Shown: positions 500 through 29,472 of the stretch, one piece after another
Numbering within the stretch: position 1 is the stretch's first letter
How the letters are laid out: the number at the start of each line of letters is the position of its first letter
Source: a virus
Taxonomy: Duplodnaviria > Caudoviricetes
IMG/VR virus record: IMGVR_UViG_3300002966_000052
Coordinates: 1 to 30,113 of that record
Length of the DNA: 30,113 nt
Direction: 5' to 3' (one strand)
Program-made: the position numbers and the translations under genes
Notes under the pieces: generated by a model
What the model was told of the DNA's origin: nothing
Seen by the model: the letters and a program-made list of their open reading frames with translations, nothing else
Database searches by the model: none

Positions 500-819
500 A
501 GTTTTAATTATTTTTTTAATTATTTTTCTGACCCTTTATTTATTTTCAAGATAGTCAAAACAGCCAGGACAAGCAACCCCTTTTCGTCCTTCGCCCACAT
601 CTTCAAATACTCTGATTTCTTTTTTTTCAATTGCTGGGAATTCTCTGCCACATACTTCGCAAATTTCTGTTTCATTGCCAATTATCTTTTCGTAGCATAT
701 TGGACAAAAAATGGTTTTATTGCCATATTTGTCTTGAATTATTTCTGCTCTATTGTTGGGGATAAAATCCCCGCACACTATACATTTTAATGTTTCCATA
801 GTTTTAATTATTTTTTTAA
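497..819. repeat. Exact 23-bp direct repeat of a start codon plus leader
   Basis: catagttttaattatttttttaa at 497-519 and 797-819; partial copy catagttttaat at 169-180. Confidence 0.85.
536..799 (-). CDS. Double zinc-ribbon protein
   Basis: Four CxxC motifs (CIVC, CPIC, CEVC, CPGC) in 87 aa. Confidence 0.75.
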   Translation of the reverse strand: METLKCIVCGDFIPNNRAEIIQDKYGNKTIFCPICYEKIIGNETEICEVCGREFPAIEKKEIRVFEDVGEGRKGVACPGCFDYLENK

Positions 820-826
820 CGACCTT

Positions 827-985
827 TTAATAATTTTTTTTATTTTCTTTTTCTGCGATTTTAACTTTGTCCTGCCACTTGCTCTTTCCCATTTCTTCTT
901 CAAGTCCTTCTTCTGAATAAGCAGAGATTTTAACAATCACTTCGTCTGTTTCCTCATTTATAATTTTAGCTTCAAAAATATACAT
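827..985 (-). CDS. Small hypothetical protein, 52 aa (not in ORF track)
   Basis: MYIFEAKIINEETDEVIVKISAYSEEGLEEEMGKSKWQDK...; preceded by AAAGGTTG at 1006-1013. Confidence 0.7.
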   Translation of the reverse strand: MYIFEAKIINEETDEVIVKISAYSEEGLEEEMGKSKWQDKVKIAEKENKKNY

Positions 986-1117
986 AGTTTTTTTATTTTA
1001 TTTTGCAACCTTTTAATTTATTAAGTTAATAAATTTTTCGTAATGACCGCTTAAATCTCCCTCATAACCCCCCCCGCATATTTCACCATAAAGAGCCAAA
1101 CAATTATTTGCACAAAA

Positions 1118-1321
1118 CTAATCATCGGGTTTTAGTTCGTCTTCCCAAACCCAAAAAGGAGAAGTGAAATTTCTAAACTTCGGGTCTGCAAGTTGGGCAT
1201 CAATTACTTTATAAATTGGTTGACGGCGGTTATTGTAGAATTCATTTATTGGAGAATCAAGCCTGTCAAGAATTTTTACTTTCATCCCGCACCACTTGAC
1301 AGTGCTATTTATTCTGAACAT
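1118..1321 (-). CDS. Hypothetical protein, first gene after the tandem promoters
   Basis: 67-aa ORF with AAAGGTCG leader at 1348-1355. Confidence 0.65.
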   Translation of the reverse strand: MFRINSTVKWCGMKVKILDRLDSPINEFYNNRRQPIYKVIDAQLADPKFRNFTSPFWVWEDELKPDD

Positions 1322-1357
1322 ATTTTTAGAATTTTTTAATTTTTTTCCGACCTTTAT

Positions 1358-1471
1358 TATATTATATTCCCCTATTTTAAAAAGTCAAGGGGTTTTGTAT
1401 TTTTGCTGATTTTTATCATTTCAATGCTTCTATATATATTATATTCCCTTGTTTTAAAAAGTCAAGGGGTT
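1358..1471 (-). promoter_or_regulatory. Two tandem sigma70-type promoters within a 37-bp direct repeat
   Basis: Copies 1358-1394 and 1435-1471 match at 35/37. Each has TTGACT-16 nt-TATAAT (1383-1388/1361-1366 and 1460-1465/1438-1443). Confidence 0.8.
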
Positions 1472-1486
1472 AGACAATTTTAAAGC

Positions 1487-1608
1487 AAAATAAAAAGCCG
1501 GGCTTGGGATTGGGCATACATTAATAAATAATTACTTATTGGCGCCCCCCCCTTAAAGGGGGGTGTCTTTTTAATAAACATATACCCAACAAAGTCCACA
1601 AGCCCAGC
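1487..1608 (-). terminator. Long rod-like stem-loop plus U-tract at the end of the late operon
   Basis: Minus-strand RNA pairs GCUGGGCUUG/CAAGCCCGGC and UUGGGUAUA/UAUGCCCAA, has an apical C6/G8 stem, and is followed by UUUUUAUUUU. Confidence 0.6.
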
Positions 1609-1621
1609 CCATTTTATTCTA

Positions 1622-1870
1622 TTATTTTTTTTCTGGAACGTCAAGTTTAACCGAAACTCTTTCTTTATTTTTCAACCCAAACACCTTTGCCAATGTTCTT
1701 AATGCATTAATAGTGCTTCCTTTTCTACCAACTAAAATTCCAGCATCTTCTTCACTTGGCACAATCGTTAATAATACTCCCATCTTGTCTATGGTTTCTT
1801 TAATCTTAATCTTGTCTGGATTGTTTACCATTTCCTTAACAATATTTTCAAGAAATTCTTTACTACTCAT
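1622..1870 (-). CDS. khpA: KH-domain RNA-binding protein KhpA
   Basis: 82 aa; EFLENIVKEMVNNPD, GVLLTI, DAGILVGRKGSTINALRTL with GxxG loop. Confidence 0.9.
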   Translation of the reverse strand: MSSKEFLENIVKEMVNNPDKIKIKETIDKMGVLLTIVPSEEDAGILVGRKGSTINALRTLAKVFGLKNKERVSVKLDVPEKK

Positions 1871-1893
1871 TTTTTTTAGTTTTCTTAATTAAC

Positions 1894-2184
1894 TCAACCG
1901 ACCTTTTCTTTCTTTAATATTGATTTTGTTAAAACATCATAACCGCCACTTGCCATTAACCCAACAAAAATCCCATATATGATATTTTGAAGAAGGCCCT
2001 GGGGTGTATATCCTCCACTTAAAACAAAAAGCAAAATAGCAATACCAATAGAAAGAAGCGGTAATCTTTCTTTTGGAATTTCTTTCCCAAAATCTTTTAA
2101 CAAAATCTTAATTGCCTCAACAGTTGCCCCAACTACCACAACTGCCGGAATACCAAATAATAATAATTGCGATGTATCAATCAT
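1894..2184 (-). CDS. Holin
   Basis: Three hydrophobic segments, LPLLSI and GLMASGGYD motifs, basic C-terminus, adjacent to the endolysin. Confidence 0.85.
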   Translation of the reverse strand: MIDTSQLLLFGIPAVVVVGATVEAIKILLKDFGKEIPKERLPLLSIGIAILLFVLSGGYTPQGLLQNIIYGIFVGLMASGGYDVLTKSILKKEKVG

Positions 2185-2238
2185 AATTTTTATTCAATTA
2201 AATATTTATTTTTCAACCTTTGTTTATAAGTTAATTAG

Positions 2239-2772
2239 TTAACATACACCTCCGCTCCATACATAATTCCCTCTTATGGTTTTATACCACTTATTATTAT
2301 TCCCCACGGTTTGTCCATCAACTACGCCCACAACAGTAATAACCGTTCCATAATATAAGACCCTTGAACCAGCCAAAGGAGCCGATGTTGTTGGTCGTGC
2401 CCTTACTCGTAAGGCGGGAACAATCACTTTAACTTGCTTTGGGAAGCCGGGTGTCTGTTGTGCTGGAACCAAAACATTTGGTGGTCTAAAATATCCAAGT
2501 ATCTTTAATTCTTCCCTTGTTCCTGTCCTTCTTGTTATTTCACATCTTTTAAAATTAGCCTCTTCTATTGTAATTTTATCACCATTAACAGCAACGACAA
2601 TACCAACGTGCCCCCAAGGATAACCACAATCCATTATTGCTACCTCGCCAACCAAAGGAATATAACTATTAACTATTTTCATTTTGTCGGCAAGCGTCCA
2701 TAGTCCTCCCGGAAGAGAGGGAACTTTACTTTTTGCATAAAGAACACAATTGCATTTTATATCTTCTCCCAT
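2239..2772 (-). CDS. Endolysin, CHAP domain plus SH3b-like domain
   Basis: NCVLYA (Cys), WGHVGIV (His), IEEANF, GYFRP; proline-rich linker; LRVRARPTTS...WYK...YVW. Confidence 0.88.
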   Translation of the reverse strand: MGEDIKCNCVLYAKSKVPSLPGGLWTLADKMKIVNSYIPLVGEVAIMDCGYPWGHVGIVVAVNGDKITIEEANFKRCEITRRTGTREELKILGYFRPPNVLVPAQQTPGFPKQVKVIVPALRVRARPTTSAPLAGSRVLYYGTVITVVGVVDGQTVGNNNKWYKTIRGNYVWSGGVC

Positions 2773-2807
2773 AATTTTATAATATTATTATAAATTGACC
2801 TTTATTT

Positions 2808-2836
2808 ATTTTAACGCTCACCACAATTAAAGTCAA
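2808..2836 (-). promoter_or_regulatory. Sigma70-type promoter upstream of endolysin-holin-khpA
   Basis: TTGACT (2831-2836), 17 nt, TAAAAT (2808-2813). Confidence 0.6.
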
Positions 2837-2848
2837 GAGTTTTAAAAA

Positions 2849-3103
2849 TCAGTGGACTTGTATTAAATAACCAATAATCGTTATTAGTATACCAAGAATA
2901 AATGTTCCAATACCAACTATAGTTGAAAGCAGTTTCCAGTTCGGTTGCTTTAAAACCACGTCCTTTAGGTTTTCTATTTCTTCTTGTATGCATTTAAGAT
3001 GATTGTCCTTAATCTCTTTTATATCTTCTTTAATATAATGAATATCTCTCTTTATAATCGCAATTTCAATATCTTGTTTTTTATTGTAATTGTTTTCTGG
3101 CAT
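2849..3103 (-). CDS. Coiled-coil plus C-terminal TM protein (XhlA/holin-like lysis-associated)
   Basis: IAIIKRDIHYIKEDIKEIKDNHL then a hydrophobic C-terminus; start moved to ATG 3103 to avoid overlap. Confidence 0.6.
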   Translation of the reverse strand: MPENNYNKKQDIEIAIIKRDIHYIKEDIKEIKDNHLKCIQEEIENLKDVVLKQPNWKLLSTIVGIGTFILGILITIIGYLIQVH

Positions 3104-3165
3104 AGTTATAGGTAAGCACAAACAAAAAGAATTATTAATTGCGACATTGTTTTTCTTACATATTT

Positions 3166-3986: not shown

Positions 3987-4571
3987 TTAAAGACCTTTAG
4001 GTTTTTCTTCTGGTTCTTTAAGTTGATGTTCTTTAGCCCCCTCATTAAATCTTTTAGCATTATCATATATTTTATTGTCTTTTATTTTTTTAAATTCTCC
4101 ATCGGGAGTTAACTCCAGCACCTTTTTTCCTTTTGGATTGATAAAAACTAGGCTTTCGTCCTCCTCTGTAATAACCCAATTATTTTTAAAGATTAAATCG
4201 CCAGTTGTAAACCCACCGGAAGAATGAATATTTACAAAATATCCATCTTTAAACCTATAATTTGAAGCCCCCAACATTACTGTATCATGATTTGCTGGGA
4301 AAACCAAGGGACTTCCAGCAACTACCCTTGAAAATCCCAATACGTTATCACCATAAATATTTTTAATTCTTCCGTATTCATCAAATTGAATATTGCCCCC
4401 AAACCAACTAATAAGATCTCCACCATTTGATATTCCAAATGCTCCAATATAACACCCATTTCCAAGAATTATAGAATTTTTATCAATACACCAACCAGTC
4501 AAGGATGCACCGCCACCTTGGCCAGGTATTTCACGTGGGGGGCGGGGTATATTGTTTGATGTTATTGCCAT
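3987..4571 (-). CDS. Putative tail tip / fibre-associated protein
   Basis: Gly-rich beta content, LGASNYRFKDGY and TGDLIFKNNWVITE segments, position in tail module. Confidence 0.55.
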   Translation of the reverse strand: MAITSNNIPRPPREIPGQGGGASLTGWCIDKNSIILGNGCYIGAFGISNGGDLISWFGGNIQFDEYGRIKNIYGDNVLGFSRVVAGSPLVFPANHDTVMLGASNYRFKDGYFVNIHSSGGFTTGDLIFKNNWVITEEDESLVFINPKGKKVLELTPDGEFKKIKDNKIYDNAKRFNEGAKEHQLKEPEEKPKGL

Positions 4572-8775: not shown

Positions 8776-8804
8776 AAAATTATTTTTATCTCAACGACCT
8801 TTAA

Positions 8805-9830: not shown

Positions 9831-9991
9831 AGTTTTTTAGCTTCATCAAGGCTTTTTGCCTTAACGGTTTTATTTAAAAGAGGGAAGAAAAATTCTTTTA
9901 ATTTTTCCTCCTCGACCTTTGTTTTTGTTTCGACTTTTAATTCTTTGTCTTCAAACTTATTTATTGCCTTATTTTTAAATTTTCTTTGCAT
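9815..9991 (-). CDS. Small hypothetical protein, 58 aa (not in ORF track)
   Basis: MQRKFKNKAINKFEDKELKVETK...EFFFPLLNKTVKAKSLDEAKKLCHLK; fills the gap, preceded by AAAGGTCA at 10020-10027. Confidence 0.65.
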   Translation of the reverse strand: MQRKFKNKAINKFEDKELKVETKTKVEEEKLKEFFFPLLNKTVKAKSLDEAKKLCHLK

Positions 9992-9996: not shown

Positions 9997-10422
9997 TTAT
10001 ATTATTTCAAAGGGTTTTCTGACCTTTATTTCTAAATTTAAAACCCTCATATTCAATTCTCTGTCAACCCAACTATTTCCAGCAACCACCCATACTCCAA
10101 TAATATCAGCAACCGATGACAAATGCCTATCTTTATCAAATGTATCAATAATTGAATCAGTAATAGAATCCAAAATTTCCTCGCCAGTTTCTGCCCCTCT
10201 TCCTTCTTTTTCAATCTCTTGATAAATTTTAATATTAAAAACCCAGTCTCTTATGTTGGTAGCGGTATCACTCCATTCATTTGTTTCAATTTTAAATCCG
10301 CTTATTACAGCACTTGGATATCCTTCTAATTCTCCTTTTTCCCACGCATAAACATTTTTAATCTCTGATATTGATTGAAGTTTGCTTATAATTGCCGATT
10401 TTATGTTTAAATAATCACTCAT
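9997..10422 (-). CDS. Tail terminator / completion protein
   Basis: Size, position before the tube, IKSAIISKL and GYPSAVI motifs. Confidence 0.7.
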   Translation of the reverse strand: MSDYLNIKSAIISKLQSISEIKNVYAWEKGELEGYPSAVISGFKIETNEWSDTATNIRDWVFNIKIYQEIEKEGRGAETGEEILDSITDSIIDTFDKDRHLSSVADIIGVWVVAGNSWVDRELNMRVLNLEIKVRKPFEII

Positions 10423-10872: not shown

Positions 10873-11181
10873 TTAACTCTCAAGTTCTTCTATTATTACT
10901 TCCTTGACCTTTATACCCCACAAATTAAATGTTCTTATGCCCGCTACAATATAATTAATTGAATTGTATGATACTTTATCTGTTTCTTTTATATCTGAAT
11001 CGTGGTATGTATATAAAATATAAGTTTTTGACGGATTTCCTTCACTTAACATAACCGATTCTGCATCAATTGGTAAAATAATCCCGTATATTGTTCCATT
11101 TGGTTTATATTCTTCTTTATTTGTTCCAACTACTGTACCCAATCTGCTAACAGATATTGCATTTTTAAAAAGCGATTTCAT
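10873..11181 (-). CDS. Head closure (stopper) protein
   Basis: 102 aa beta-rich, DIKETDKV...Y.V, directly after the adaptor. Confidence 0.7.
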   Translation of the reverse strand: MKSLFKNAISVSRLGTVVGTNKEEYKPNGTIYGIILPIDAESVMLSEGNPSKTYILYTYHDSDIKETDKVSYNSINYIVAGIRTFNLWGIKVKEVIIEELES

Positions 11182-11185: not shown

Positions 11186-11755
11186 TTATATTGATACTTT
11201 TTTATAGCGTTCTAAAATCAATCTATCTTCATCATCAATAAATTTTCCCCAGGTAATATTAGCCGGTCCAAGCCCCTCTGATGCATGTCCCTCTGATTGT
11301 CTTTTTTCATATAATCTTCCAACCAATCTTTGGCACAATCCCTCTAAATCATAAGGAATTATAGTGTATCCAGCCTCGTATGTTATTTTATAATTTCTTT
11401 TTCCTTTAACCTGATTATAAAAATAAATCTTTCCTTCGTTTAAATATTTTTCATAATCTTCGCCCTCGTCTAATCTTGTCCAGTTTGGATTGTCTGTTGT
11501 CCCGTCATTTTGTTCTATTTTTGTTATCTCTATTACTGGATACTGATTTAAATAAAGAACCCTATCAAAACTATCACCATCATAAATTTCCTCATGAGTT
11601 GTCTTTAAAAATCTTCTTTGGCAATATTCCTCAATAAAATCAGTTGCAAAGTTAATCAACCTCTCTAAAAGAGTATCGTCTGTTGAAACGCTAATTCCAA
11701 GATAAGTTTTAACTTTTTCTACCGTTGTTAATGCATAACTTACTAATTCTGACAT
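11186..11755 (-). CDS. Head-tail adaptor (HK97 gp6 / SPP1 gp15-like)
   Basis: LTTVEKVKTYLGI, DDTLLERLI..A..FIEEYCQRRF, YEAGY..IPYDL. Confidence 0.88.
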   Translation of the reverse strand: MSELVSYALTTVEKVKTYLGISVSTDDTLLERLINFATDFIEEYCQRRFLKTTHEEIYDGDSFDRVLYLNQYPVIEITKIEQNDGTTDNPNWTRLDEGEDYEKYLNEGKIYFYNQVKGKRNYKITYEAGYTIIPYDLEGLCQRLVGRLYEKRQSEGHASEGLGPANITWGKFIDDEDRLILERYKKVSI

Positions 11756-12708
11756 AAAATTTTAATATATTGTTTTTTAAGTTTTTGCCACGACCAATTT
11801 TCTGCTATTATGTTTGATATATTTGAATATTTTGAAATATCTTTGTTTGCGATGTCATCTATTGCTCTGGCAAACAGTTTTGGCTCAACATCATATACCT
11901 CAATTGGTTTTCTTATTGTTTGAATTGTTTTTGATGTTGGCTTAACTAATAATCTATTTGGTAAAAATAAGTTTTGTGGCTTAACATCTAATGATAATAT
12001 TGCCATTCCCGATGCCATTGCTTCATTAAGAATTAAAGATAATCCGCCATACCTTCTTGGAAACAATAATACATCTCCATCGTTATATGCTTCCCAATAA
12101 TTGTCTTTGTCCTCAATAATATATTCAACCCTCGGGTCATTTATTTTGGGTATTTCCTCTTGGCTTTTGATTATAAATTTAACATCGTTTTTAACTAATG
12201 GAATTGCTTTTCTTATTATCTCAAATCCGTTTCTGTCATATCCACCATAAGAATTGCCATAATTATAAAAAAACTTTTTTGCCACTCTTCTTCTTTTAAA
12301 TGGAATAACATCTCTATTGATTGGAACTGGTAAATATATTTTGGGCGATGGTATATCTTCAAAATGCCATAAACTTGGTGCAAGGTATATGTCTGCTTCG
12401 TCATCAAGCCACTCATAATTTAATTGTAAAAATGTCTTAACCCCTTTCTGTCTTGCTATTTTGGGAAGCCATTTATAATACCAAGTTTCAAAAGATACAA
12501 TACAATCAACCCCATCTAAAAGCCAATCTATATTTTTTTCTATATCTTGTAAGGTGCAAAATTTAGCATCTGGAAATCTTTCTCTATATGTTTTCTTCTC
12601 GTTTATCTCAACTATCAAAGTTTTTTGGGGGTTAATATGTCTATAAAATTCCCAAGATTGAATTCCAAGTCCCCTATTATTATCTCTACCTAACATTGCT
12701 ATTCTCAT
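11743..12708 (-). CDS. Glycosyltransferase, GT-B fold (GT4-like)
   Basis: GLGIQ N-terminal loop; DVLLFPRRYGGLSLILNEAMASGMAIL signature; NWSW C-terminus. Confidence 0.85.
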   Translation of the reverse strand: MRIAMLGRDNNRGLGIQSWEFYRHINPQKTLIVEINEKKTYRERFPDAKFCTLQDIEKNIDWLLDGVDCIVSFETWYYKWLPKIARQKGVKTFLQLNYEWLDDEADIYLAPSLWHFEDIPSPKIYLPVPINRDVIPFKRRRVAKKFFYNYGNSYGGYDRNGFEIIRKAIPLVKNDVKFIIKSQEEIPKINDPRVEYIIEDKDNYWEAYNDGDVLLFPRRYGGLSLILNEAMASGMAILSLDVKPQNLFLPNRLLVKPTSKTIQTIRKPIEVYDVEPKLFARAIDDIANKDISKYSNISNIIAENWSWQKLKKQYIKILCQN

Positions 12709-13162
12709 ATTTTTGAAGCCAAAATTCTAATCCTTTATTTTTCTTTTTTCTTTTAATAACAATAAATCTTGCCTTGGTAATATATCCAAAATTTTGACAA
12801 TATTCTTTATATGGGTCAAATATATCAAACGTTTCAAGCGTAAATAATCTTTTATGGGTTATATCCCTCCAACCAATTTCTGGGTGGTCTGCATCTGGAA
12901 CCCTTATAAAAACCTTGCCATTATCTTTTAACACCCTCCACACTTCCTCCATTACCCTTAATGGCTCATTTAGGTGCTCAAGAACATCCCTTAAAATAAC
13001 CAAATCAAATTCCTTATCATTAAATGGATAAGGAAACTGATTTAAATCCCAAATAATATCAACCTTTTCTGTCTTAACTATGTCAACCCCTACAATCTCT
13101 CCTTTTGCCAGTGGCTCTTCCCATCTGCCAATTCCCAATACTAATGTTTTAAATTGCTCCAT
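12686..13162 (-). CDS. Class I SAM-dependent methyltransferase (type 11-like)
   Basis: LVLGIG, VGVDI, WDLNQFPYPF, DVLEHL, EVWRVLKDNG, DITHKR. Confidence 0.88.
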   Translation of the reverse strand: MEQFKTLVLGIGRWEEPLAKGEIVGVDIVKTEKVDIIWDLNQFPYPFNDKEFDLVILRDVLEHLNEPLRVMEEVWRVLKDNGKVFIRVPDADHPEIGWRDITHKRLFTLETFDIFDPYKEYCQNFGYITKARFIVIKRKKKNKGLEFWLQKYENSNVR

Positions 13163-14099
13163 CTTTTTTTAAAATATTTAACATCTGTAAAACTTTATGG
13201 CGATAAGTATGGTTTTTTTTAACCCATTGATGTCCCGCAATTCTTATTTTTTCTCTTTCTTCATCGTGCTTAAGATAATAATCAATTATCATTTTCAATG
13301 TTTTAAAGTCTCCATACCAATACGGAACGAAGTGCTCATAATATCTATATTGCTTTTCAAGCCCCTCAACCTTGGGGTGGATTAAAAATCCTCCCCTTCC
13401 AAGCGTTTCTGGAATTCTATCAGACCAATAATATGGCGAATACAAACTATCTCCAACAGCAATTTTAGCACTTGCATAAAGATTATTTAAGTCGTCTCCC
13501 CTAATACAGTCTGCATCTCCCCATAATCTAAATCTGTCTTGATAAGTTTCTCTTAAAAAATCAATTAATACTCTTCTATATCCCCATTCTGCGTGGTATC
13601 TATAACTTCCAACAAAAACCACATCTTTTTCAAATGCTTGTTTCTTTGTTCCCAAATAACACTCCTTGTCATATACTCCTGGTGATAACCAATAATGATT
13701 TATTCCTTTTTCCTTAAATTCTTTTGAGTGTCCACCATCTGCTGTAAAAACATAATCTGATTGAAAAAATGTATCGTTTTCTATTCCTACTCCTCGTGAT
13801 ATTCCAAAATATAAATCCAAGGTAAATGAAACCGTTGGAATTTTAATGTGCCGCAAAATTTCTCCATATAACAGTCCTGTTCTCGCCCAGGTTCTGGTAT
13901 ATAACAAAAATTTACACCCACCAGTTTTCTCAAGCACCTCCTCTGGTCTTCTTATTTCATCTTCCTGAACGGGAATGACCTCCCAGCCAAGTCCCTCAAA
14001 TGTTTTTTTAATGTGGTTCTCGGTTGAGTGGGGTGGTCTGAAGTTTCCAATATAAACTATCCTATTTTGTGAACCTTTTTTAAATGACTTTTTACCCAT
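13149..14099 (-). CDS. Glycosyltransferase, GT-B fold (CgeB-like)
   Basis: DVVFVGS, LNNLYASAKI, YWSDRIPETLGRGGFLI, EREKIRIAG...HTY. Confidence 0.87.
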   Translation of the reverse strand: MGKKSFKKGSQNRIVYIGNFRPPHSTENHIKKTFEGLGWEVIPVQEDEIRRPEEVLEKTGGCKFLLYTRTWARTGLLYGEILRHIKIPTVSFTLDLYFGISRGVGIENDTFFQSDYVFTADGGHSKEFKEKGINHYWLSPGVYDKECYLGTKKQAFEKDVVFVGSYRYHAEWGYRRVLIDFLRETYQDRFRLWGDADCIRGDDLNNLYASAKIAVGDSLYSPYYWSDRIPETLGRGGFLIHPKVEGLEKQYRYYEHFVPYWYGDFKTLKMIIDYYLKHDEEREKIRIAGHQWVKKNHTYRHKVLQMLNILKKDGAI

Positions 14100-16799: not shown

Positions 16800-16824
16800 A
16801 TTTTTAATTATTTTTTTGTGACCT

Positions 16825-18915
16825 TTATTCAACTAATGGTGTGAAATCACATTCACAATTTGGATGAACTGGAATTTCATCCCTAATTTCATTTATTAAC
16901 CATTCTCTTTTTTCCATTTCCTGACAAATTTCACAAGGATTTGGTCCGAGCAACCACTCTGCTTTTTCAAATCCAAGTTCATCCCAAATAATTGCGTGCG
17001 ACTCTATTGTTGCTCTTGCTGTTTCCGTTCTTGCAATCATATCTGCCCTATAAGAACCAATTTCGCTAAAATAATCCTCAATATTATTTCCCAACTCATA
17101 TACTCCCAATCCCTGTTCTAATCCATCTTTTAAAAGAGCCGCCAAATCTTCAAATGTGGTATCTGTAATTTCTTCTGCATATTCTTTTGCTATTCTTTCT
17201 ACCCACCTTCTTGTTTGTGGTAAATTAATAATATCAATTATTTCTTCCCCCACTAATCTTGACGCATCTTCGGCACCAGCCATTAATGTTTGATAATAAA
17301 GTGGTTCAATTATTTTTATTGTTGCCCTAATCTCTCTTTGTTTTGGTGGCAAGATATTATTAACTAATGATTTTCTTCTTTTTAGCCTTTCGATAATTTT
17401 TTCTTTTTGTTTTTTAAATAATTTAGTAATTGCTTTTCGCCACTCCTCTTCCAGTATTCTTTTCTTTTTTGTTCGTGTTTCATAAAATTTTTCTTTTGCT
17501 TCTTGCGAAATTTGCTTTTTTTTTGAAATAATTAAAACCTTATTTGCCTTTCTTTTTTCTTTTATTTTGGTCTTTATTTTTTGTTCAAATTTTTGCTCTA
17601 TTTCTTTTTCAATTTTTCGCTGATTTAAATTTCTTGCCAAGATATTTTTTCTAATAGTCTTTTGTATTTTAAGATTTAACCCAGCCTTTGGTGTCTTAAC
17701 TTTTATTACTCTTTCACCTTTTGAACCCCCAACCGGCATTACATTAAATGACATATAAAGATAATCTCCACCGTCTACCTCTGGCAACCCAATCTCTTTT
17801 CTAATTTCATTAATCGTCATCCATCGATTAACTGCTTTATCATATCTTAATAATTGAATTTCTTTGTCTTCAAAAACTAACGGCTCAAAATCAAGCCAAA
17901 GATTTTCACCAAACTCTGGAACTATTTTTTTGTTTAATTGGCTAGTTATTTTTTTAAGTTTTGGCTCTAATGTGTATTTTGCAAAATTAATTTCTGCTTG
18001 CTCCATTGATGCCCTATTTACATTTGACTCTAATCCTAAAATTGATTTTGGCACACCGAAAGAAGAAAGTATTTTGTCTCTTATTTGGTCCCGTGAAGAA
18101 GAGAAATCTAATTCTTTTGGACTGTATCCCCTAGAATCAACTTCTGCCCCACCAGTCAAAACAAGAACTTTTTTGTATGCCCTATTAAATCCCTGATATT
18201 GTTGTCTAAACATTTCTTGCAGTTTTTCTTTTTGTTCTTCGGTCAATGGTTCTGGATATTTAATTATCATTGGTGGTCTTGCATCGTTTTCCATTAATCC
18301 AATATTCCAATCTGTCATATACATTTCAAGGTTAAGTGACTTTTTAATTGCCTCAAGTGGTGCATTGGCTTCAATAACTGGATTTTTCGGACTTGGATAT
18401 TTAAGGTCAATTATGTCTTCATTTTTATATTCAACTTTTTTATTACCAAAACTATATTCCCAAACTAATGGATAACCATTTTCATCAACTTTTTTTATTT
18501 TTAAGGATGGCGGCAGGGCTGGCCACAATTCATTTGGCTTTCCCGTGCTATCCCTAAAAATAACTAACGGCATTCTCCCATAAATTTCACCAAGAGTAAT
18601 TATCATTTCTTTAAAATCATATTCTGACATTATGGGATTTGGATTTTTTAAAAGGGCTAAAAGTTCGTGGTCTTCTATTTCAACAACCTCATTATTACTT
18701 TTTAATTCAAAAAGCCTCCAATCGCTATTTGCTATTCCTTGTGCAATTTTTGAAATGCAGGCATATCCCCAAGAAGTATAATATTCAAAATCCTCAAGTT
18801 CTCCCAACTGAAATCCCATTGTACCAACAGCATTTATTGATCCGTATGGCAAATCATTTTTTGCCTTAAAACTAATTGGTCTTCTTAAAAATGAAATAAT
18901 GTCTTTAAATGTCAT
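16825..18915 (-). CDS. HK97-family portal fused to a Mu gpF-like head morphogenesis domain
   Basis: YACISKIA, LLKNPNP, FGVP..LG, MTINEIR, GGD; C-terminal RADMIARTE, CEIC, PVHPNCEC. Confidence 0.92.
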   Translation of the reverse strand: MTFKDIISFLRRPISFKAKNDLPYGSINAVGTMGFQLGELEDFEYYTSWGYACISKIAQGIANSDWRLFELKSNNEVVEIEDHELLALLKNPNPIMSEYDFKEMIITLGEIYGRMPLVIFRDSTGKPNELWPALPPSLKIKKVDENGYPLVWEYSFGNKKVEYKNEDIIDLKYPSPKNPVIEANAPLEAIKKSLNLEMYMTDWNIGLMENDARPPMIIKYPEPLTEEQKEKLQEMFRQQYQGFNRAYKKVLVLTGGAEVDSRGYSPKELDFSSSRDQIRDKILSSFGVPKSILGLESNVNRASMEQAEINFAKYTLEPKLKKITSQLNKKIVPEFGENLWLDFEPLVFEDKEIQLLRYDKAVNRWMTINEIRKEIGLPEVDGGDYLYMSFNVMPVGGSKGERVIKVKTPKAGLNLKIQKTIRKNILARNLNQRKIEKEIEQKFEQKIKTKIKEKRKANKVLIISKKKQISQEAKEKFYETRTKKKRILEEEWRKAITKLFKKQKEKIIERLKRRKSLVNNILPPKQREIRATIKIIEPLYYQTLMAGAEDASRLVGEEIIDIINLPQTRRWVERIAKEYAEEITDTTFEDLAALLKDGLEQGLGVYELGNNIEDYFSEIGSYRADMIARTETARATIESHAIIWDELGFEKAEWLLGPNPCEICQEMEKREWLINEIRDEIPVHPNCECDFTPLVE

Positions 18916-21311: not shown

Positions 21312-21891
21312 TTATAATTTTTTAGCTTTTTTACCCGTAAAGGCCTCCCACCTATCTATTATAACCTGAACATATAATGGCTCTAATTCCATACCATAGC
21401 ATATTCTATTTGTCTTTTCGCAAGCAATTAAAGTCGAGCCTGAACCTAAAAATAAATCTAAAACTATTTCTTCTCTTTTAGATGAATTTAATATTGCTTT
21501 TTCTATTAATTCAATAGGTTTCATAGTAGGATGTAAATCTGATTCCACAGGCTTATCTACTTCCCAAACTGATTGCTGTTTATTACCATAAAATTTATGC
21601 TTGCCATACCAACAATATATAATTAGCTCGTGTTTAGGTAAATAATCTAATCTACCTAAAACTATATTATTTTTTAACCAAACAAGTATTTGCGATAAAT
21701 AAAAATCATTATCTTTAAGAGAATTCAATAAAACAATTAAATCTTTATCTGAAAAAGTTATATAAACAGATACGAGGATTTCCATCAAATAATTTTAAAT
21801 CTTTTATTTTTCTTTTTTCTGTTTTCCAAGTTAAATCCATAATTTTACTTTTTAATTCTTCTTCGTGTCCACATCTACAAATAATTTTCAT
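21312..21891 (-). pseudogene. Internally deleted, frameshifted ParB-like/DNA N4-N6 methyltransferase
   Basis: Frame 21745..21891 has WKTEKRKIKDLKLFDGNPR then stops. Frame 21312..21788 has HPTMKP and DLFLGSGST but no DPPY. Confidence 0.78.
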
Positions 21892-21915
21892 AATTAGCCC
21901 GCCCTCATTACACTC

Positions 21916-22005
21916 TCACCATTGTTTCGAATTGACTAATCCAAACTTTTTAATACTATCGGTTAAATTCTTAATTGCTTCTTTGGTTGGTTTGTATTTT
22001 TTCAT
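21916..22005 (-). CDS. 29-aa ORF, possible ParB-like fragment
   Basis: MKKYKPTKEAIKNLTDSIKKFGLVNSKQW; leader AAGGGTCG at 22025-22032. Confidence 0.45.
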   Translation of the reverse strand: MKKYKPTKEAIKNLTDSIKKFGLVNSKQW

Positions 22006-22033
22006 AATTCTTTAATTATTTTTCCGACCCTTT

Positions 22034-22315: not shown

Positions 22316-22534
22316 CTAATCTGTGCCTTCGCACTTGTTAAGGTAATAACCGCAACAAATGGCGATGGCAACTATCGTGTCTTCCAAGAGTTCGCCAAGA
22401 ACCCGAAGGGCGTGACAGTAGATTGCCATCAACTCTGGGTCGTTGCTTTTTGCTTCCATCATCAGGTCCCGGAGAACATCTTGAGACAACGCTATAAGGG
22501 TGATAAGTTCTTTCATTGCCAGTTCATCATTCAT
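22316..22534 (-). CDS. Hypothetical helical protein
   Basis: SD AGGAGG at 22541-22546, 6 nt before ATG 22534. Confidence 0.65.
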   Translation of the reverse strand: MNDELAMKELITLIALSQDVLRDLMMEAKSNDPELMAIYCHALRVLGELLEDTIVAIAICCGYYLNKCEGTD

Positions 22535-22808
22535 CTTCTTCCTCCTCATCTTCCCAGTTTTTATTATCTGGAAACAGGTAATACCATTTTCTTGCCCAGC
22601 CGTTTGATAGAACCCAATCCCAGAACTTGATTTTGGTTAACTCGTTATCAATAATTGCTATGTAATCTTCAATCGCTGACAAGAGTTCTTTTGTAATCTC
22701 TTGGGATTTGGGGTGTAAAGCCGCTGGGACATTTTCCGCTTCCACCATTTGCTTGAGTTGCCTGAGACAAGTAAGCAGAAACTCATAGTATTGTATTGTC
22801 GGTCGCAC
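22527..22808 (-). CDS. Hypothetical helical protein
   Basis: GTG start with SD GAGGTGA at 22815-22821. Confidence 0.7.
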   Translation of the reverse strand: MRPTIQYYEFLLTCLRQLKQMVEAENVPAALHPKSQEITKELLSAIEDYIAIIDNELTKIKFWDWVLSNGWARKWYYLFPDNKNWEDEEEEDE

Positions 22809-22821
22809 TTTTTATCACCTC

Positions 22822-23004
22822 TCATTTTTTCTCCTTTTTCTCAATGAGCGGATATCCACACTGATTGCAAAAAAGAATATATATCGTTTGTCCTGTTGGT
22901 GTCATTGCTTTCAAAATTGAAAGAGGATTTTGACACCTTTCGCACTTTATGTTCCTTGCCATTGAGAAACTACTCATTATCTCGTGGTTTTTCTTATTAG
23001 TCAT
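22822..23004 (-). CDS. Zinc-ribbon protein
   Basis: CERC...CNQC; SD GGGAGGTG at 23011-23018 before ATG 23004. Confidence 0.7.
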   Translation of the reverse strand: MTNKKNHEIMSSFSMARNIKCERCQNPLSILKAMTPTGQTIYILFCNQCGYPLIEKKEKK

Positions 23005-23138
23005 TTTTTCCACCTCCCTATTTCTTTTAGAATTTTCTTGAATTTTTTGTATTGGCGATAATTTTTTATCCCATTAACAATATTATAAACCATAAGTGGG
23101 ATAAAAACAATAGCCAACAATATTAAGTCTTTTTTCAC
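23001..23138 (-). CDS. Small single-TM protein, 45 aa (not in ORF track)
   Basis: MKKDLILLAIVFIPLMVYNIVNGIKNYRQYKKFKKILKEIGRWKK; SD-like GGGGGGTGA; ATGA coupling. Confidence 0.65.
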   Translation of the reverse strand: MKKDLILLAIVFIPLMVYNIVNGIKNYRQYKKFKKILKEIGRWKK

Positions 23139-23154
23139 TTTAATCACCCCCCTT

Positions 23155-25818: not shown

Positions 25819-25822
25819 ATTT

Positions 25823-26158: not shown

Positions 26159-26469
26159 AATTTTATTATAAGTGGTGTTTTATATATAACCTTTTTTAAT
26201 CTTTTTTCTTTTGGATAATAAATTAGATAAGCGTGAATTTTATTTTTCTTTGCCATTACTTTTATTTTTTCTATTTGTTTTTTTTCTCTGGGGCTGGGAT
26301 AAAACCTTTTCCCAAATCCCTCTTTCACTTCCCATATTTCTAATTTATTTGGTTTAATAATAATGTAATCTGCTACTTCTCCTATTGCTAATTTTACTAT
26401 AAACTTTCCTTCCTTTTTTATCTTTTGTCTAAATTTATATTCTGCCTGATAACCCCTTCTTTTTTTCAT
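26152..26469 (-). CDS. PD-(D/E)xK nuclease, Hjc-like Holliday junction resolvase
   Basis: RGYQAE, ADYII, IWEVK pattern in 105 aa. Confidence 0.72.
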   Translation of the reverse strand: MKKRRGYQAEYKFRQKIKKEGKFIVKLAIGEVADYIIIKPNKLEIWEVKEGFGKRFYPSPREKKQIEKIKVMAKKNKIHAYLIYYPKEKRLKKVIYKTPLIIKLC

Positions 26470-26525: not shown

Positions 26526-26849
26526 TTAACCACTATTAAAAGAAGACAAAATTACTCCCTTTTTTAATCCTGGTTTTGCTTCACCAATATATTCAACTTT
26601 TATTTCGTCTAAATTATTTGTCCAACAATCATCACTTCTACTATCTATTATTCTTCCGTTTTCCAACCCTTCCATAAACTTTTTCTTTTTCTCGTCGTAA
26701 AAAATATCATCGTTCCACCAACTACCGGCAGAGGCGGGGTGTATTCTCTTTGCTTCCTCTTCATTTTCTGCACAAACTACTGCACCATCAAACTGGTATA
26801 AAAACCACCAATTTTCATCTGAATGAATGGAAATTACAAATAATTTCAT
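26526..26849 (-). CDS. Conserved phage hypothetical protein
   Basis: FDGAVVCAENEEEAKRIHP...VEYIGEA...GVILSSFNSG. Confidence 0.7.
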   Translation of the reverse strand: MKLFVISIHSDENWWFLYQFDGAVVCAENEEEAKRIHPASAGSWWNDDIFYDEKKKKFMEGLENGRIIDSRSDDCWTNNLDEIKVEYIGEAKPGLKKGVILSSFNSG

Positions 26850-26883
26850 AATTTTTTATTTATTTTTTACCAACCTTTTTCAT

Positions 26884-27246
26884 TTATTCATTAACTTTAT
26901 CAACAAGTATTGATAACCCTTCTTGAAGTTCATCAATTTTCTTTTCAATTGTTTTGATGTTATTATTAATGGTTGTTAAACAAGCGATAATTGTATTGGT
27001 ATCGGCATTATCTGGCTTGGTTTCCCTAAAAGCAATTTTCGCTTTGTGAATTTCTATTCCATCTTCTGTGTGATAATCGTTTTCTGGGTCCCATTCAACC
27101 CAAATTGAATGATATAGTTTTGGTTTTTCTTTGCTAAATAGCATCCATACTTCTTCTTTATTATTTTCTTCCCAAATATTATAATACGGAATACCTGTTG
27201 CGGCTTTCTTTTCTGTAATTTTACTAATTTTTATTTTTTTCCTCAT
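26884..27246 (-). CDS. Hypothetical protein (beta-rich N-terminus, coiled-coil C-terminus)
   Basis: ORF with start set at ATG 27246. Confidence 0.6.
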   Translation of the reverse strand: MRKKIKISKITEKKAATGIPYYNIWEENNKEEVWMLFSKEKPKLYHSIWVEWDPENDYHTEDGIEIHKAKIAFRETKPDNADTNTIIACLTTINNNIKTIEKKIDELQEGLSILVDKVNE

Positions 27247-27562
27247 TGTTTTTAAGTTTTTCAATTCTTTCTATTACATCATTAGAAATTTCTTCCTTTG
27301 TATTTAGTCCATATTCTTTACTTATTTCTTCAACAATTTCTTTTGCCTGTTGAGTAATTAAATTTATGTCTATTTCTTTATTAAACCCTTGACCGCTCCA
27401 AAAATCACACAACGCTTTAAACACGCTTTGAAACATTATCTGTTTGTCTTTGAGTTGAAAAGGATAATTTTCTTTATCCCTCCACTCTTTATAACTATCT
27501 ATTAACGGCTCTAAAAGACCTTTTCTATTTAAGTATTCTGCAAATTTGATATCTATTTCCAT
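27224..27562 (-). CDS. Hypothetical protein
   Basis: 112-aa ORF with AAAGGTTG leader. Confidence 0.65.
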   Translation of the reverse strand: MEIDIKFAEYLNRKGLLEPLIDSYKEWRDKENYPFQLKDKQIMFQSVFKALCDFWSGQGFNKEIDINLITQQAKEIVEEISKEYGLNTKEEISNDVIERIEKLKNNEEKNKN

Positions 27563-27653
27563 AAGTTTTATTTTATTAACTCTTTTTATTTACAACCTTT
27601 TTATTAATTAAACATAAATATTTATTTAAAACCACCTGAATTGAAAATGACAT

Positions 27654-27914
27654 TTATTTTTGAATTAAATTTTTAATTGCCTCTGTAGTTAATACGTGGG
27701 TTTTTCTCCACTTTCTTCCGACCTTAATTAAATATCCCTCTTCTTGAAGTTGTTCCATTTTTTGTCTTGCCCTTTCTTTTGAAAAACCAAAAGTATCTCC
27801 TATTTCTTTTAGGGTTGGCATTTTTCCAGTAGCGGCAAGGTAATCAATGATATACAAATAAATCTTTTTATTGAGTTGTTTTCTTTTTATAATTGACCTT
27901 GTTTCTTTTTTCAT
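27654..27914 (-). CDS. LexA-like winged-HTH regulator, DNA-binding domain only
   Basis: IYLYIIDY...GKMPTLKEIGDTFGFSKERARQKMEQLQEEGYL; no peptidase domain. Confidence 0.82.
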   Translation of the reverse strand: MKKETRSIIKRKQLNKKIYLYIIDYLAATGKMPTLKEIGDTFGFSKERARQKMEQLQEEGYLIKVGRKWRKTHVLTTEAIKNLIQK

Positions 27915-27922
27915 ATTACTCT

Positions 27923-27951
27923 ATCTTAAAAAATTTTTTTAAAAAAGTCAA
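27923..27951 (-). promoter_or_regulatory. Sigma70-type promoter giving a near-leaderless transcript
   Basis: TTGACT (27946-27951), 17 nt, TAAGAT (27923-27928), 8 nt before ATG 27914. Confidence 0.6.
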
Positions 27952-27954
27952 GGG

Positions 27955-28662
27955 TTAAAGTTTATACTCTTTAACTTGATCAATTTTTTTAACAACCGTT
28001 GAGAGTGTCCAATCAAATCCACCTTTTTCTGCGGCAAATTTTGCAAGATTTTGGGCCACCAAAATATCTTTTGTTTTATATGGTGTAAGTTGGCTGGCAT
28101 ATTTTCCGTGTCGTTTAATAAAGTCTTGCAATTTCTTTTTAGCATTTTTCGCCTTTTCTTCTGGTGTTTTTCCTTCTACATCCGTAAAATCAATATTTTT
28201 CTCTTTTGCATACCATGCTAAAATCCTTAAATGTCTCTGTTTAGAGGAACTAAGCATTTTAAGAATTTCTTCGTTATTATTATATTTATATAATAATAAA
28301 TTATTATTTATATTGTTTTCTTTAAGTTTTCTTAAATAGCCCTTTTTAAGTTTTTTTAAATAGGGGGTGGGTTTTGGTAGGGGTGTTAAGTATATTTTTC
28401 TTAGGTTTCCTTCTTCTTTATTTATCTCAATTTTAATAAATCCAGCCTTTTCTAATGTTTGAAGAGTCATTGAAATTTGAGTAATTGATTTATTATATAA
28501 TTCAGCAAAATAAGCGTTAGAAGCCCGGCAATATCCTTCTTTATCACAAAGAGCCGTTATTTCAGAATACAAAAGTTTTGCTAATAAAGATATTTTTTTG
28601 CTATATCTTACTTCTGCCGGTAAAATTGAATAATAAGATGGTTTAATTTTTTCTTCTGCCAT
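27955..28662 (-). CDS. Phage replication initiator with N-terminal wHTH
   Basis: YYSILPAEVRY, AKLLYSEITAL, GYCRASNAYFAELY, L..LEKAGFI; N-rich linker. Confidence 0.87.
   Translation of the reverse strand: MAEEKIKPSYYSILPAEVRYSKKISLLAKLLYSEITALCDKEGYCRASNAYFAELYNKSITQISMTLQTLEKAGFIKIEINKEEGNLRKIYLTPLPKPTPYLKKLKKGYLRKLKENNINNNLLLYKYNNNEEILKMLSSSKQRHLRILAWYAKEKNIDFTDVEGKTPEEKAKNAKKKLQDFIKRHGKYASQLTPYKTKDILVAQNLAKFAAEKGGFDWTLSTVVKKIDQVKEYKL
28272..28363. repeat. Probable replication origin: two 19-bp iterons plus AT-only tract
   Basis: tttaagttttYttaaatag at 28321-28339 and 28345-28363; A/T-only run about 28274-28314. Confidence 0.62.
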
Positions 28663-28678
28663 AATAAGCCCCTAATCT

Positions 28679-28708
28679 CTCTCCTTGTATCCGAAGACAC
28701 AAGGAGAG
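28679..28708 (-). promoter_or_regulatory. 13-bp cUUCGg hairpin upstream of the initiator gene
   Basis: CUCUCCUUGUGUC-UUCG-GAUACAAGGAGAG. Confidence 0.75.
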
Positions 28709-28720
28709 CAAATTAGATGC

Positions 28721-29293
28721 TTACTCAAAATAGTCAAGATATTTGCGATATGTTCCTGTTCTGTAGGTTGTCCATTGAGACCAGTCCGTTCCACCCCTTG
28801 ATAATTGGTAGGCAACATCTATATTATATTCCCAGTTTAATAACCTTGAGCAGTCTACCCATCCACAATGGCAACTATTAATCTGGGCAATACCCCTATC
28901 AACTGAACCATCAGCGTTTATATTTTGGGCATCGGCCCTTAATCCACTTTCTGCGTTAAATATAGCCAGAGCAATTTTGCTTCTATTTCCAAATTTTTTT
29001 TGCGTATATTCTACGATAGGCGTAACATCTTGTCCGCTTCTATTGATATACACTCTTTTTTCAATTACTTTTTCTTTTATTTTTTCAATTACTTTCGGTT
29101 CTTGGTTTTGCAGATTCCACACTTTTTCCTGAAGTTCTTGATTTTTTCTCCGCATTTCTTGACTATAATTGTAGTGGGCTATTATCTGGCTTATCGTAAG
29201 AATAAGCACAAATAATTTAACCCACCACGGTATTCTCCACAGGTTTTCTTTTGGCTTTCTGCCTCCGATTCGCCTGTGGAGGGTTGTACTCAT
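28721..29293 (-). CDS. Membrane-anchored lytic transglycosylase (SLT-like)
   Basis: N-terminal TM, coiled coil, AESG (catalytic Glu), DRGIAQIN, YNIDVAY, WSQWTTY. Confidence 0.88.
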   Translation of the reverse strand: MSTTLHRRIGGRKPKENLWRIPWWVKLFVLILTISQIIAHYNYSQEMRRKNQELQEKVWNLQNQEPKVIEKIKEKVIEKRVYINRSGQDVTPIVEYTQKKFGNRSKIALAIFNAESGLRADAQNINADGSVDRGIAQINSCHCGWVDCSRLLNWEYNIDVAYQLSRGGTDWSQWTTYRTGTYRKYLDYFE

Positions 29294-29311
29294 ATTCAAT
29301 ATTTCACCCTG

Positions 29312-29446
29312 TTATTTAATTAGCGAGGCGACCTTTAATAAATCCGCCGCTAATTTACCGATGTAAAGAGCCATTAATAAACATATTATAATACCTCCCA
29401 AAAGTGAAATCAAGCATTGCTTCTTTATTTTGGAAATTTTGTTCAT
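29312..29446 (-). CDS. Small single-TM protein, 44 aa (not in ORF track)
   Basis: MNKISKIKKQCLISLLGGIIICLLMALYIGKLAADLLKVASLIK; AAAGGTCG leader. Confidence 0.6.
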   Translation of the reverse strand: MNKISKIKKQCLISLLGGIIICLLMALYIGKLAADLLKVASLIK

Positions 29447-29472
29447 AAGTTTATTTTATTTTTCCGACCTTT

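What the first reader, a model, noticed from the sequence alone, without database searches (positions are those of the whole stretch)
529..29472. Genome-wide non-Shine-Dalgarno leader motif AARGGTYR (AAAGGTCG) 18-35 nt upstream of start codons
Seen: most genes have no SD. At least 17 starts are preceded, usually across an A/U-rich spacer, by this motif. Motif start on + strand -> ATG: 529->499, 820->799, 1006->985, 1348->1321, 1899->1870, 2214->2184, 2796->2772, 3991->3966, 8795->8775, 10020->9991, 10905->10871, 16819->16799, 22025->22005, 26871->26849, 27593->27562, 29329->29293, 29465->29446. It lies just after a -10 box in two cases (1348, 2796), overlaps or abuts upstream stop codons (536, 827, 16825, 22034, 29473), and is sometimes written into the upstream protein's tail (holin KEKVG, KPKGL). 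Internal variants are C->U and A->G, the changes G-U wobble would tolerate against 5'-CGACCUUU-3'; only the terminal base mismatches. Established: calicivirus TURBS elements recruit ribosomes by pairing with helix 26 of the small-subunit rRNA. Inference: this is an RNA-level ribosome-recruitment or reinitiation signal pairing with host rRNA outside the anti-SD. From recall, 16S helix 26 in Patescibacteria contains UAUCGACCC, a candidate partner. Some gene-internal copies also exist (e.g. 427, 9913).
Basis: partly seen in the sequence, partly recalled or inferred. Interest (0 to 1): 0.9.

Follow-up and report, generated by a model that had tools for sequence, protein, structure and literature searches.

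The report
Leader motif matching 16S helix-26 loop
A phage that likely infects tiny Patescibacteria puts the same eight-letter signal 18-35 bases before a third of its genes; the signal recurs in related phages and hosts and is the complement of a near-invariant loop of the host ribosome, so it may be a second ribosome-docking site besides Shine-Dalgarno, though the pairing is untested.

Summary
The motif is real: 16 of 53 genes carry AARGGTYR in the last 50 nt (shuffles: mean 1.0, max 4). The window is a tailed-phage contig whose captured khpA points to a Paceibacteria host. AAAGGTCG recurs in other phages (73 vs 1.4 expected, seed sites excluded) and in about 2-4% of host leaders (groES, atpE, HU, pilins, khpA). 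In other phages no non-seed AAGGTCG site lies under 16 nt from the ATG. It has no fixed distance to promoters and favours uncoupled genes. Its core GGUCG(A) complements the 16S h26 loop, NN-UCGACC in 99 of 100 Paceibacteria. Enrichment follows that loop (162/91 and 120/87 motif/control) and vanishes where the loop differs (85/95). Against pairing: no compensatory change was found, the strict AAA is not complementary, the last G is often A, and enrichment is not tied to anti-SD loss. The rival is a protein site, KhpA being the lead. It works like HCV IIId/TURBS docking but fails the TURBS test. The scan noted this motif before in a Patescibacteria genome (e1-1052756) and read it as a regulatory element, not a ribosome site.

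The parts
529..536 (-). motif AAGGGTCA, 29 nt before ATG 499, overlapping the upstream stop
820..827 (-). motif AAAGGTCG, 20 nt before ATG 799
1006..1013 (-). motif AAAGGTTG, 20 nt before ATG 985
1348..1355 (-). motif AAAGGTCG, 26 nt before ATG 1321, 5 nt after a -10 box
1361..1388 (-). sigma-70-like promoter TTGACT-16-TATAAT upstream of the 1348 motif
   Evidence: consensus match only
1622..1870 (-). khpA-like KH-domain gene (82 aa, GRKG loop intact, lacks the host C-terminal tail); best matches in Paceibacteria
1899..1906 (-). motif AAAGGTCG inside the holin 3' end, 28 nt before the khpA ATG
2214..2221 (-). motif AAAGGTTG, 29 nt before the holin ATG 2184
2796..2803 (-). motif AAAGGTCA, 23 nt before the CHAP endolysin ATG 2772, 4 nt after a -10 box
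2808..2836 (-). sigma-70-like promoter TTGACT-17-TAAAAT upstream of the 2796 motif
   Evidence: consensus match only
3991..3998 (-). variant AAAGGTCT, 24 nt before ATG 3966, inside the upstream gene's tail
8795..8802 (-). motif AAAGGTCG, 19 nt before ATG 8775, right after a hairpin
10020..10027 (-). motif AAAGGTCA inside the upstream gene, 28 nt before ATG 9991
10905..10912 (-). motif AAAGGTCA inside the upstream gene, 33 nt before the tail-completion ATG 10871
16819..16826 (-). motif AAAGGTCA at the portal stop, 19 nt before the prohead protease ATG 16799
22025..22032 (-). motif AAGGGTCG, 19 nt before ATG 22005 (a 29-codon ORF)
26871..26878 (-). motif AAAGGTTG, 21 nt before ATG 26849
27593..27600 (-). 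motif AAAGGTTG, 30 nt before ATG 27562
29329..29336 (-). motif AAAGGTCG inside the upstream ORF, 35 nt before the SLT-gene ATG 29293
29465..29472 (-). motif AAAGGTCG at the upstream stop, 18 nt before ATG 29446
427..434 (-). gene-internal AAAGGTCG with no start nearby; the copy at 9913-9920 is also internal, 82 nt before the tail-tube ATG

Best explanation
AAAGGUCG is a leader element shared by Patescibacteria and their phages that likely helps load ribosomes on uncoupled genes, most likely by pairing its GGUCG(A) core with the single-stranded UCGACC loop at the tip of 16S helix 26. Shown: enrichment, strand, a 16-35 nt window before the ATG, occurrence in hosts and other phages, the complementary near-invariant loop, and the lineage correlation. 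Inferred: (1) the host is a Paceibacterium; (2) the 30S platform captures the leader through a 5-6 bp duplex (about -6 to -8.5 kcal/mol; the GGUCA variant gives 4 bp, -5.5); (3) the three strict adenines would run along the h26 stem as in an intermolecular H-type pseudoknot, which would explain why A and not G precedes GG; (4) the A/U-rich unstructured spacer and the A-rich start context then place the AUG; (5) coupled genes such as major capsid and tail tube do without it. It would be an enhancer for selected genes, heavily used by phages, not a genome-wide replacement for Shine-Dalgarno.
For: Window: 16 of 53 genes vs 1.0 in shuffles. Other phages, seed sites excluded: AAGGTCG in 73 of 1352 leaders vs 1.4 expected, and 44 of 1123 vs 0.7 with an independent GGTCA seed; a control seed gave 2 of 1062 vs 0.8. 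Non-seed spacers: none under 16 nt, plateau at 16-30, so the site lies outside the start region, which fits docking better than occlusion. Distance to -35/-10 promoters varies from 5 to 38 nt. Hosts: 60 of 120 genome hits are titled as Patescibacteria groups (hand count); GGTCG in 18 of 598 non-seed leaders vs 1 for the reverse complement. h26 loop NN-UCGACC in 99 of 100 Paceibacteria with varying stems. Motif/control counts: Paceibacteria 162/91 (30 genomes), other Patescibacteria with the loop 120/87 (25), changed or absent loop 85/95 (25); Fisher p 0.001. khpA leaders in unselected genomes: 5 of 19 with the loop, 0 of 24 without, p 0.012, although KhpA is found in both groups. PMC9297842 independently flags 16S nt 837-850 as conserved in Parcubacteria with unknown role. 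The h26 apex is a proven docking site for HCV-like IRES IIId and TURBS motif 1 and lies at the bacterial mRNA exit.
Against: No compensatory covariation in any of four tests: khpA leaders of 24 variant-loop genomes, genome chunks of 4 variant-loop genomes, CIRCE spacers of 30 mostly variant-loop genomes, a variant-seeded phage scan. No extension to a 7th pair in genomes with a GUGUCGACC loop: C follows GGTCGA in 11 of 150 listed rows (the A-type comparison was not run). The AAA is strict but not complementary, and a G there would pair better with a melted stem (-14.2 vs -9.3 kcal/mol) yet is seen 1 time against 73. The last G to A change (a mismatch to C) is enriched 8-fold, the wobble-neutral C to U change only 3-fold. 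The lineage correlation is confounded by descent. Within Paceibacteria the motif/control ratio is the same with (40/23) and without (75/44) an anti-SD (hand tally). 279 of 1024 5-mers occur in all 15 Paceibacteria 16S, so a short match alone is weak. The major capsid gene lacks the motif.
Confidence: 0.5

Rival explanations
1. The motif is the binding site of an RNA-binding protein, KhpA being the lead candidate, which activates translation of or stabilises these mRNAs and regulates its own gene; some phages carry a tailless KhpA to tune this.
For: The strict AAAGGUC-purine profile looks like base-specific protein reading. The motif precedes khpA in 14 of 17 motif-selected genomes and in the phage copies here and in L025. 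KhpA is in this phage and in 1 clear plus 1 weak case of 15 motif-rich phage records, although no PHROG matches it. The motif often sits in what reads by eye as a hairpin loop in khpA and groES leaders. The GXXG loop is intact.
Against: KH-family hits over the cut-off occur in 31 of 33 genomes of the mostly variant-loop set, where the motif is not enriched and not in khpA leaders (0 of 24). 13 of 15 motif-rich phage records show no KhpA, including all 4 rated complete. The passages read on C. jejuni KhpA/B give no sequence motif. groES, atpE and DUF378 also recur among motif genes, so khpA is not unique. Variant-loop lineages also have diverged KhpA, so the first point is not decisive.
Confidence: 0.3
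2. The motif binds 30S subunits through h26, or another factor, only to shield the mRNA from 5' decay or to mark a processing site, like a stabilising SD, without raising initiation.
For: Some copies sit at the very start of predicted transcripts (4-5 nt after a -10 box) or right after a hairpin or stop. It coexists with an SD in 3 of 4 G180 matches.
Against: The tight 16-30 nt window before ATG is not needed for stability alone. 0 of 84 tRNA leaders and 2 of 104 16S leaders carry it (weak, few expected).
Confidence: 0.12
3. It is a DNA element: a promoter part or a repressor operator.
For: Two window copies abut -10 boxes. Host -10-like boxes show a mild cluster 4-9 nt upstream.
Against: It is non-palindromic and strand-specific. 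Distance to promoters ranges 5-38 nt while distance to ATG has a sharp floor. 31 of 98 sites in other phages lie inside the upstream CDS. In four leaders it fills the free spacer of a CIRCE-like inverted repeat.
Confidence: 0.06

Closest known systems
HCV-like (type IV) IRES domain IIId pairing with the apical loop of 18S h26/ES7 (10.1101/2025.05.13.653779, passages)
   Same: G-rich mRNA bases pair with cytidines in the h26 apical loop to recruit the small subunit without prior translation.
   Different: Eukaryotic, part of a large folded IRES and proven. Here it is an 8-nt linear bacterial element, repeated over many genes, and the pairing is only inferred.
Calicivirus and influenza B TURBS motif 1 (PMC3035654, passages)
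   Same: Short motif complementary to the h26 apical loop, upstream of the start, sometimes shown in a hairpin loop.
   Different: TURBS lies inside the upstream ORF, needs translation through it and a close stop/start. Here most sites are at or after the upstream stop, or in 5' UTRs, before uncoupled genes.
Shine-Dalgarno / anti-SD pairing (PMC6107228, passages)
   Same: Short purine-rich leader motif with a preferred spacing and an rRNA complement; strength tunable by wobble.
   Different: The partner would be an internal loop, not the 3' tail. Spacing is 16-35 nt, not about 7. It is used by only about 2-4% of host genes. Amin et al. found no variant SD matching a variant tail.
Proposed h26-loop pairing with G-rich 5' UTRs in Staphylococcus aureus (PMC5137454, passages)
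   Same: Same idea in bacteria: h26 at the mRNA exit pairing with leaders.
   Different: Stated there as an untested hypothesis without a motif; here a defined motif, spacing and lineage correlation.
KhpA/KhpB RNA-binding proteins (10.64898/2026.10.12.757534, passages); CsrA-type leader sites and STAB-SD (both recalled)
   Same: Leader sites, often in loops, including before the protein's own gene.
   Different: No KhpA sequence motif in the passages read. CsrA sites overlap the ribosome-binding region, whereas this motif stays at least 16 nt away.

Membership tests
TURBS (termination-reinitiation) | Motif complementary to the h26 apical loop | tested here: met
   GGUCG(A) vs UCGACC in 99 of 100 Paceibacteria; by sequence only
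TURBS (termination-reinitiation) | Motif inside the upstream ORF, before a closely spaced stop/start | tested here: not met
   15 of 18 motif genes have gaps of 15 nt or more vs 11 of 37 others, p 4e-4; other phages 71 of 98 vs 159 of 275, p 0.011
TURBS (termination-reinitiation) | Dependence on translation through the element | not testable with these tools
   Sites in 5' UTRs just after promoters argue against it
TURBS (termination-reinitiation) | Motif 2/2* stem presenting motif 1 | tested here: inconclusive
   Hairpin-loop context by eye in several khpA and groES leaders; folding of the phage leaders was uninformative
Shine-Dalgarno site | Complementary to the 16S 3' tail | tested here: not met
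   Only AAAGG matches CCUUU; 16 of 17 motif-selected bacterial 3' ends lack CCUCC
Shine-Dalgarno site | About 5-10 nt from the start codon | tested here: not met
   18-35 nt in the window; no non-seed site under 16 nt in other phages
mRNA-rRNA pairing site (general) | Compensatory covariation between motif and rRNA | tested here: inconclusive
   None found; the motif is lost where the loop changes, but those lineages may not use the mechanism
mRNA-rRNA pairing site (general) | Physical pairing and rescue by compensatory mutants | not testable with these tools
   Needs ribosomes
KhpA target site | Direct binding by KhpA | not testable with these tools
   No protein-RNA tool
KhpA target site | Motif co-occurs with KhpA | tested here: inconclusive
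   KH-family hits over cut-off in 71 of 73 Patescibacteria, with or without the motif; 2 of 15 motif-rich phage records
Core promoter element | Fixed distance to the -10 box | tested here: not met
   5-38 nt in 21 promoter-linked cases

The most novel reading that the evidence does not exclude
Patescibacteria have a second anti-Shine-Dalgarno: the helix-26 apical loop UCGACC pairs with AAAGGUCG 16-35 nt upstream of start codons, forming an intermolecular pseudoknot on the 30S platform. It is a bacterial counterpart of HCV-IRES/TURBS docking, used for abundant host proteins and exploited by their phages, and it may have eased the loss of the classical anti-SD in half of Paceibacteria.
Probability: 0.45. 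Interest if true: 0.92.

Novelty: new variant of a known kind. Interest (0 to 1): 0.78.

Why it matters
How Paceibacteria start translation when about half lack the anti-SD, and why their h26 loop is so conserved, are stated open questions (PMC9297842). This gives a defined motif, spacing and partner that one compensatory-mutation experiment can test. If true, it would be a bacterial case of initiation guided by pairing to an internal 16S loop, a device my searches found established only for eukaryotic viral and cellular mRNAs. If the KhpA rival holds instead, it gives a sequence motif and regulon for a widespread bacterial RNA-binding protein. Either way the motif is a usable marker for phages of Patescibacteria and for start-codon calling.

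Tried and rejected
Rfam and tRNA scans of the window: nothing. RNA runs: no RNA holder listed, which is no evidence either way. A full CGACCUUU or UGACCUUU partner in the 16S-23S stretches of 60 loci: no conserved site. A second UCGACC near 16S h42 is variable and in a stem. Mimicry of an rRNA protein-binding site: TAAAGG hits in 16S are not at one homologous place. An rRNA-leader or tRNA-leader role: 2 of 104 and 0 of 84. Compensatory k-mers in variant-loop genomes G144, G121, G120, G072: not enriched in 49-119 genes each, low power. CIRCE spacers: motif in 1 of 70 genomes, no compensatory spacer. Non-Patescibacteria controls: 102 vs 105 in 5 genomes, but h26 was recovered for only 1 of 5 and differs, so the question of other phyla with the same loop stays open. 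The tool's backward-pattern control was not used because it ignores CG depletion. Local folding of the phage leaders was uninformative. Capsid relatives gave one identical contig and two weak hits. The KhpA tree has few columns and long-branch joins, so it supports but does not prove the host. Literature: no paper held the motif strings, the h26/apical loop/SD/30S set from 2017 on, or the Patescibacteria/phage/SD/host prediction set; searches listed nothing describing it. Subscription journals are mostly not searched, and I read no supplements (the alignments in those of PMC9297842 may bear on h26).
Full report
Observation. All 17 sites are present as listed. AARGGTYR occurs 28 times on the coding (minus) strand and twice on the other. 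16 of the 28 lie 15-40 nt before a start (p 7e-15). 16 of 53 genes carry it in their last 50 nt, against 1.0 on average and at most 4 in 1000 dinucleotide shuffles of the same leaders. SD is nearly absent (GGAGG in 2 of 53), and starts have an A-rich context (A at -6..-3, T at -1). Small corrections: 3991 is AAAGGTCT, 22005 opens a 29-codon ORF, and a weak site at 26187-26194 was missed.

Context. The window is a whole 30-kb virus record with terminase, portal, prohead protease, HK97-type capsid, tail tube, tape measure, holin and CHAP endolysin, all on one strand. It also encodes an 82-aa KhpA-like KH protein at 1622-1870. Among the 59 loci that matched it (60 Patescibacteria and 9 other loci searched), its six best matches are anti-SD-less genomes from the motif scan with Paceibacteria-type 16S (45-50% identity). 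Non-Patescibacteria reach at most 34%. The tree groups it with Paceibacteria, with long-branch caveats. The host is therefore inferred, not shown.

Beyond this phage. A strict motif-spacer-ATG pattern gave 122 viral stretches and 120 genome stretches, 60 of them titled as Patescibacteria groups (hand count, with about a dozen more unnamed). With seed sites removed, AAGGTCG is in 73 of 1352 viral leaders vs 1.4 expected and in 15 of 862 host leaders vs 0.8. An independent GGTCA seed gives 44 of 1123 vs 0.7. A control seed gives 2 of 1062 vs 0.8. 15 of 77 viral loci hold three or more further sites. In host genome chunks only about 2-4% of genes have it. Among 94 of 113 candidate host genes annotated are groES (3), atpE (2), HU, pilins (6), a mechanosensitive-channel helix protein (4), Hsp20, glutaredoxin, DUF378 (2), fabG-like (2) and khpA (4): largely small proteins that are usually abundant (my knowledge).

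Anatomy. Non-seed spacers in phages start at 16 nt and plateau to 30. Distance to -35/-10 promoters runs from 5 to 38 nt and is always downstream, so this is a transcribed element tied to the start codon rather than to the promoter. Motif genes are mostly uncoupled: 15 of 18 have a gap of 15 nt or more, vs 11 of 37 other genes (p 4e-4); in 15 other phages 71 of 98 vs 159 of 275 (p 0.011). 25 of those 98 sites end 5-9 nt after the upstream stop, which supplies the adenines, and 31 lie inside the upstream gene. Major capsid and tail tube, both coupled, lack a leader site. In khpA and groES leaders the motif often sits in what reads as a hairpin loop, in four cases the spacer of a CIRCE-like repeat.

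The candidate partner. All 24 h26 sequences recovered from motif-selected genomes read AGURUCGACCC, and 16 of 17 bacterial 3' ends lack CCUCC. In an even sample of 331 genomes of the class, 99 of the 100 with a match have the loop NN-UCGACC while the stem and first two loop bases vary. Of 62 valid 3' ends 29 have CCUCC, 5 a partial and 28 none, close to the published 48%. Outside this group 52 of 89 typed genomes keep the loop. PMC9297842 (passages and section 8 part 1) reports nt 837-850 as unusually conserved in Parcubacteria and says its role is unknown. PMC5137454 (passages) places h26 at the mRNA exit and proposes, untested, loop pairing with leaders. GGUCGA with the loop computes to -8.5 kcal/mol, against -10.1 for a strong SD. 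A short match alone is weak: 279 of 1024 5-mers occur in all 15 Paceibacteria 16S. Only 14 of those are also missing from 30% or more of 70 other Patescibacteria, and CGACC is one (threshold chosen after the fact, genomes mostly motif-selected).

Tests of the pairing. Correlation: motif vs reverse-complement control before HHATG gave 162/91 in 30 Paceibacteria, 120/87 in 25 other genomes with the loop, and 85/95 in 25 with a changed or absent loop (Fisher p 0.001). khpA leaders in unselected genomes have it in 5 of 19 with the loop and 0 of 24 without. Descent confounds both. Covariation: none found in khpA leaders, genome chunks, CIRCE spacers or a variant-seeded phage scan, and no seventh pair. 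Substitution profile: the AAA is strict though not complementary to the stem's CUU register (A to G before GG, 1 vs 73), and the last G to A is the commonest change (24 vs 3.0), ahead of the wobble-neutral C to U (8 vs 2.8). It can be reconciled by an intermolecular H-type pseudoknot in which the adenines lie in the stem's minor groove (inference from general pseudoknot knowledge), but it fits protein recognition equally well. Within Paceibacteria the ratio does not depend on anti-SD loss (40/23 vs 75/44, hand tally), and G180 has motif and SD in the same leaders. So it is an added element, not a substitute. The strict-pattern hits were richer in anti-SD-less genomes (16 of 17 vs 33 of 62), but that pattern also selects A-rich starts.

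Rival. I confirm it there in 14 of 17 motif-selected genomes and before two of three phage khpA genes examined (this one and L025, not L044). KhpA is in 1 clear and 1 weak case of 15 motif-rich phage records and in none of the 4 complete ones. It is present in hosts whether or not they use the motif. The KhpA/B preprint passages give no sequence motif. This rival stays open at about 0.3.

Comparison. It would work like HCV-type IRES IIId and TURBS motif 1, which pair with the apical loop of 18S h26 (passages). It is not a TURBS, since the position test fails, and not an SD, since partner and spacing fail. Searches for the motif and for bacterial h26-loop pairing found no description (open-access library only).

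Verdict. A real, lineage-wide, apparently undescribed leader element. The h26-docking model is the best single explanation (0.5) and would answer a published open question, but it rests on complementarity and correlation, without covariation or any physical test.

Noticed in passing
window 22316-23150 (-): A block of four short genes with textbook SD sequences (GGAGG/GAGGTG, 5-8 nt before the start) and 39% GC in an otherwise SD-less 33% GC phage; looks like a cassette from a phage of an SD-using host.
   Followed up: no
window 1622-1870; L365-L424: Most Patescibacteria KhpA proteins have an acidic C-terminal tail ending in a D/E-D-L-K-L-like motif that the Firmicutes and Desulfobacterales copies lack; this phage's KhpA stops before it. 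KhpA also occurs in phage loci L025 and L044, and weakly in G533.
   Followed up: partly
G060, G069, G095, G031, G112, G092, G168, G071, G042: khpA (often after rpsP) lies within about 8 kb, often 1-3 kb, of the 16S gene in at least 9 Patescibacteria genomes.
   Followed up: no
window 21312-22005 (-): The DNA-methyltransferase region appears fragmented: a 29-codon ORF, a 48-codon ORF and an overlapping 158-codon methylase ORF in different frames.
   Followed up: no
window 11743-14099 (-): Two glycosyltransferases and a SAM methyltransferase sit between the capsid and head-tail adaptor genes.
   Followed up: no
L173, L198, L239, G073:C6:22581-22607: In a Paceibacteria subgroup the motif fills the spacer of a CIRCE-like inverted repeat, before groES in the three loci annotated.
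   Followed up: partly
L021; L528, L540, L544: Other phage leader motifs: CTGGAACT-like in 9 of 32 leaders of L021, and GCAGAAG in 4-5 leaders each of three related loci.
   Followed up: no
host and viral loci: Among genes without the motif, promoter-to-ATG distances peak at 5-9 nt (11 host, 15 viral cases), suggesting leaderless transcripts as another route.
   Followed up: no
L190 / G040; G328: L190 is titled Pacearchaeota but its 16S is bacterial and Paceibacteria-like; G328 carries an h26 unlike the rest of its class. Possible mislabel or contamination.
   Followed up: no
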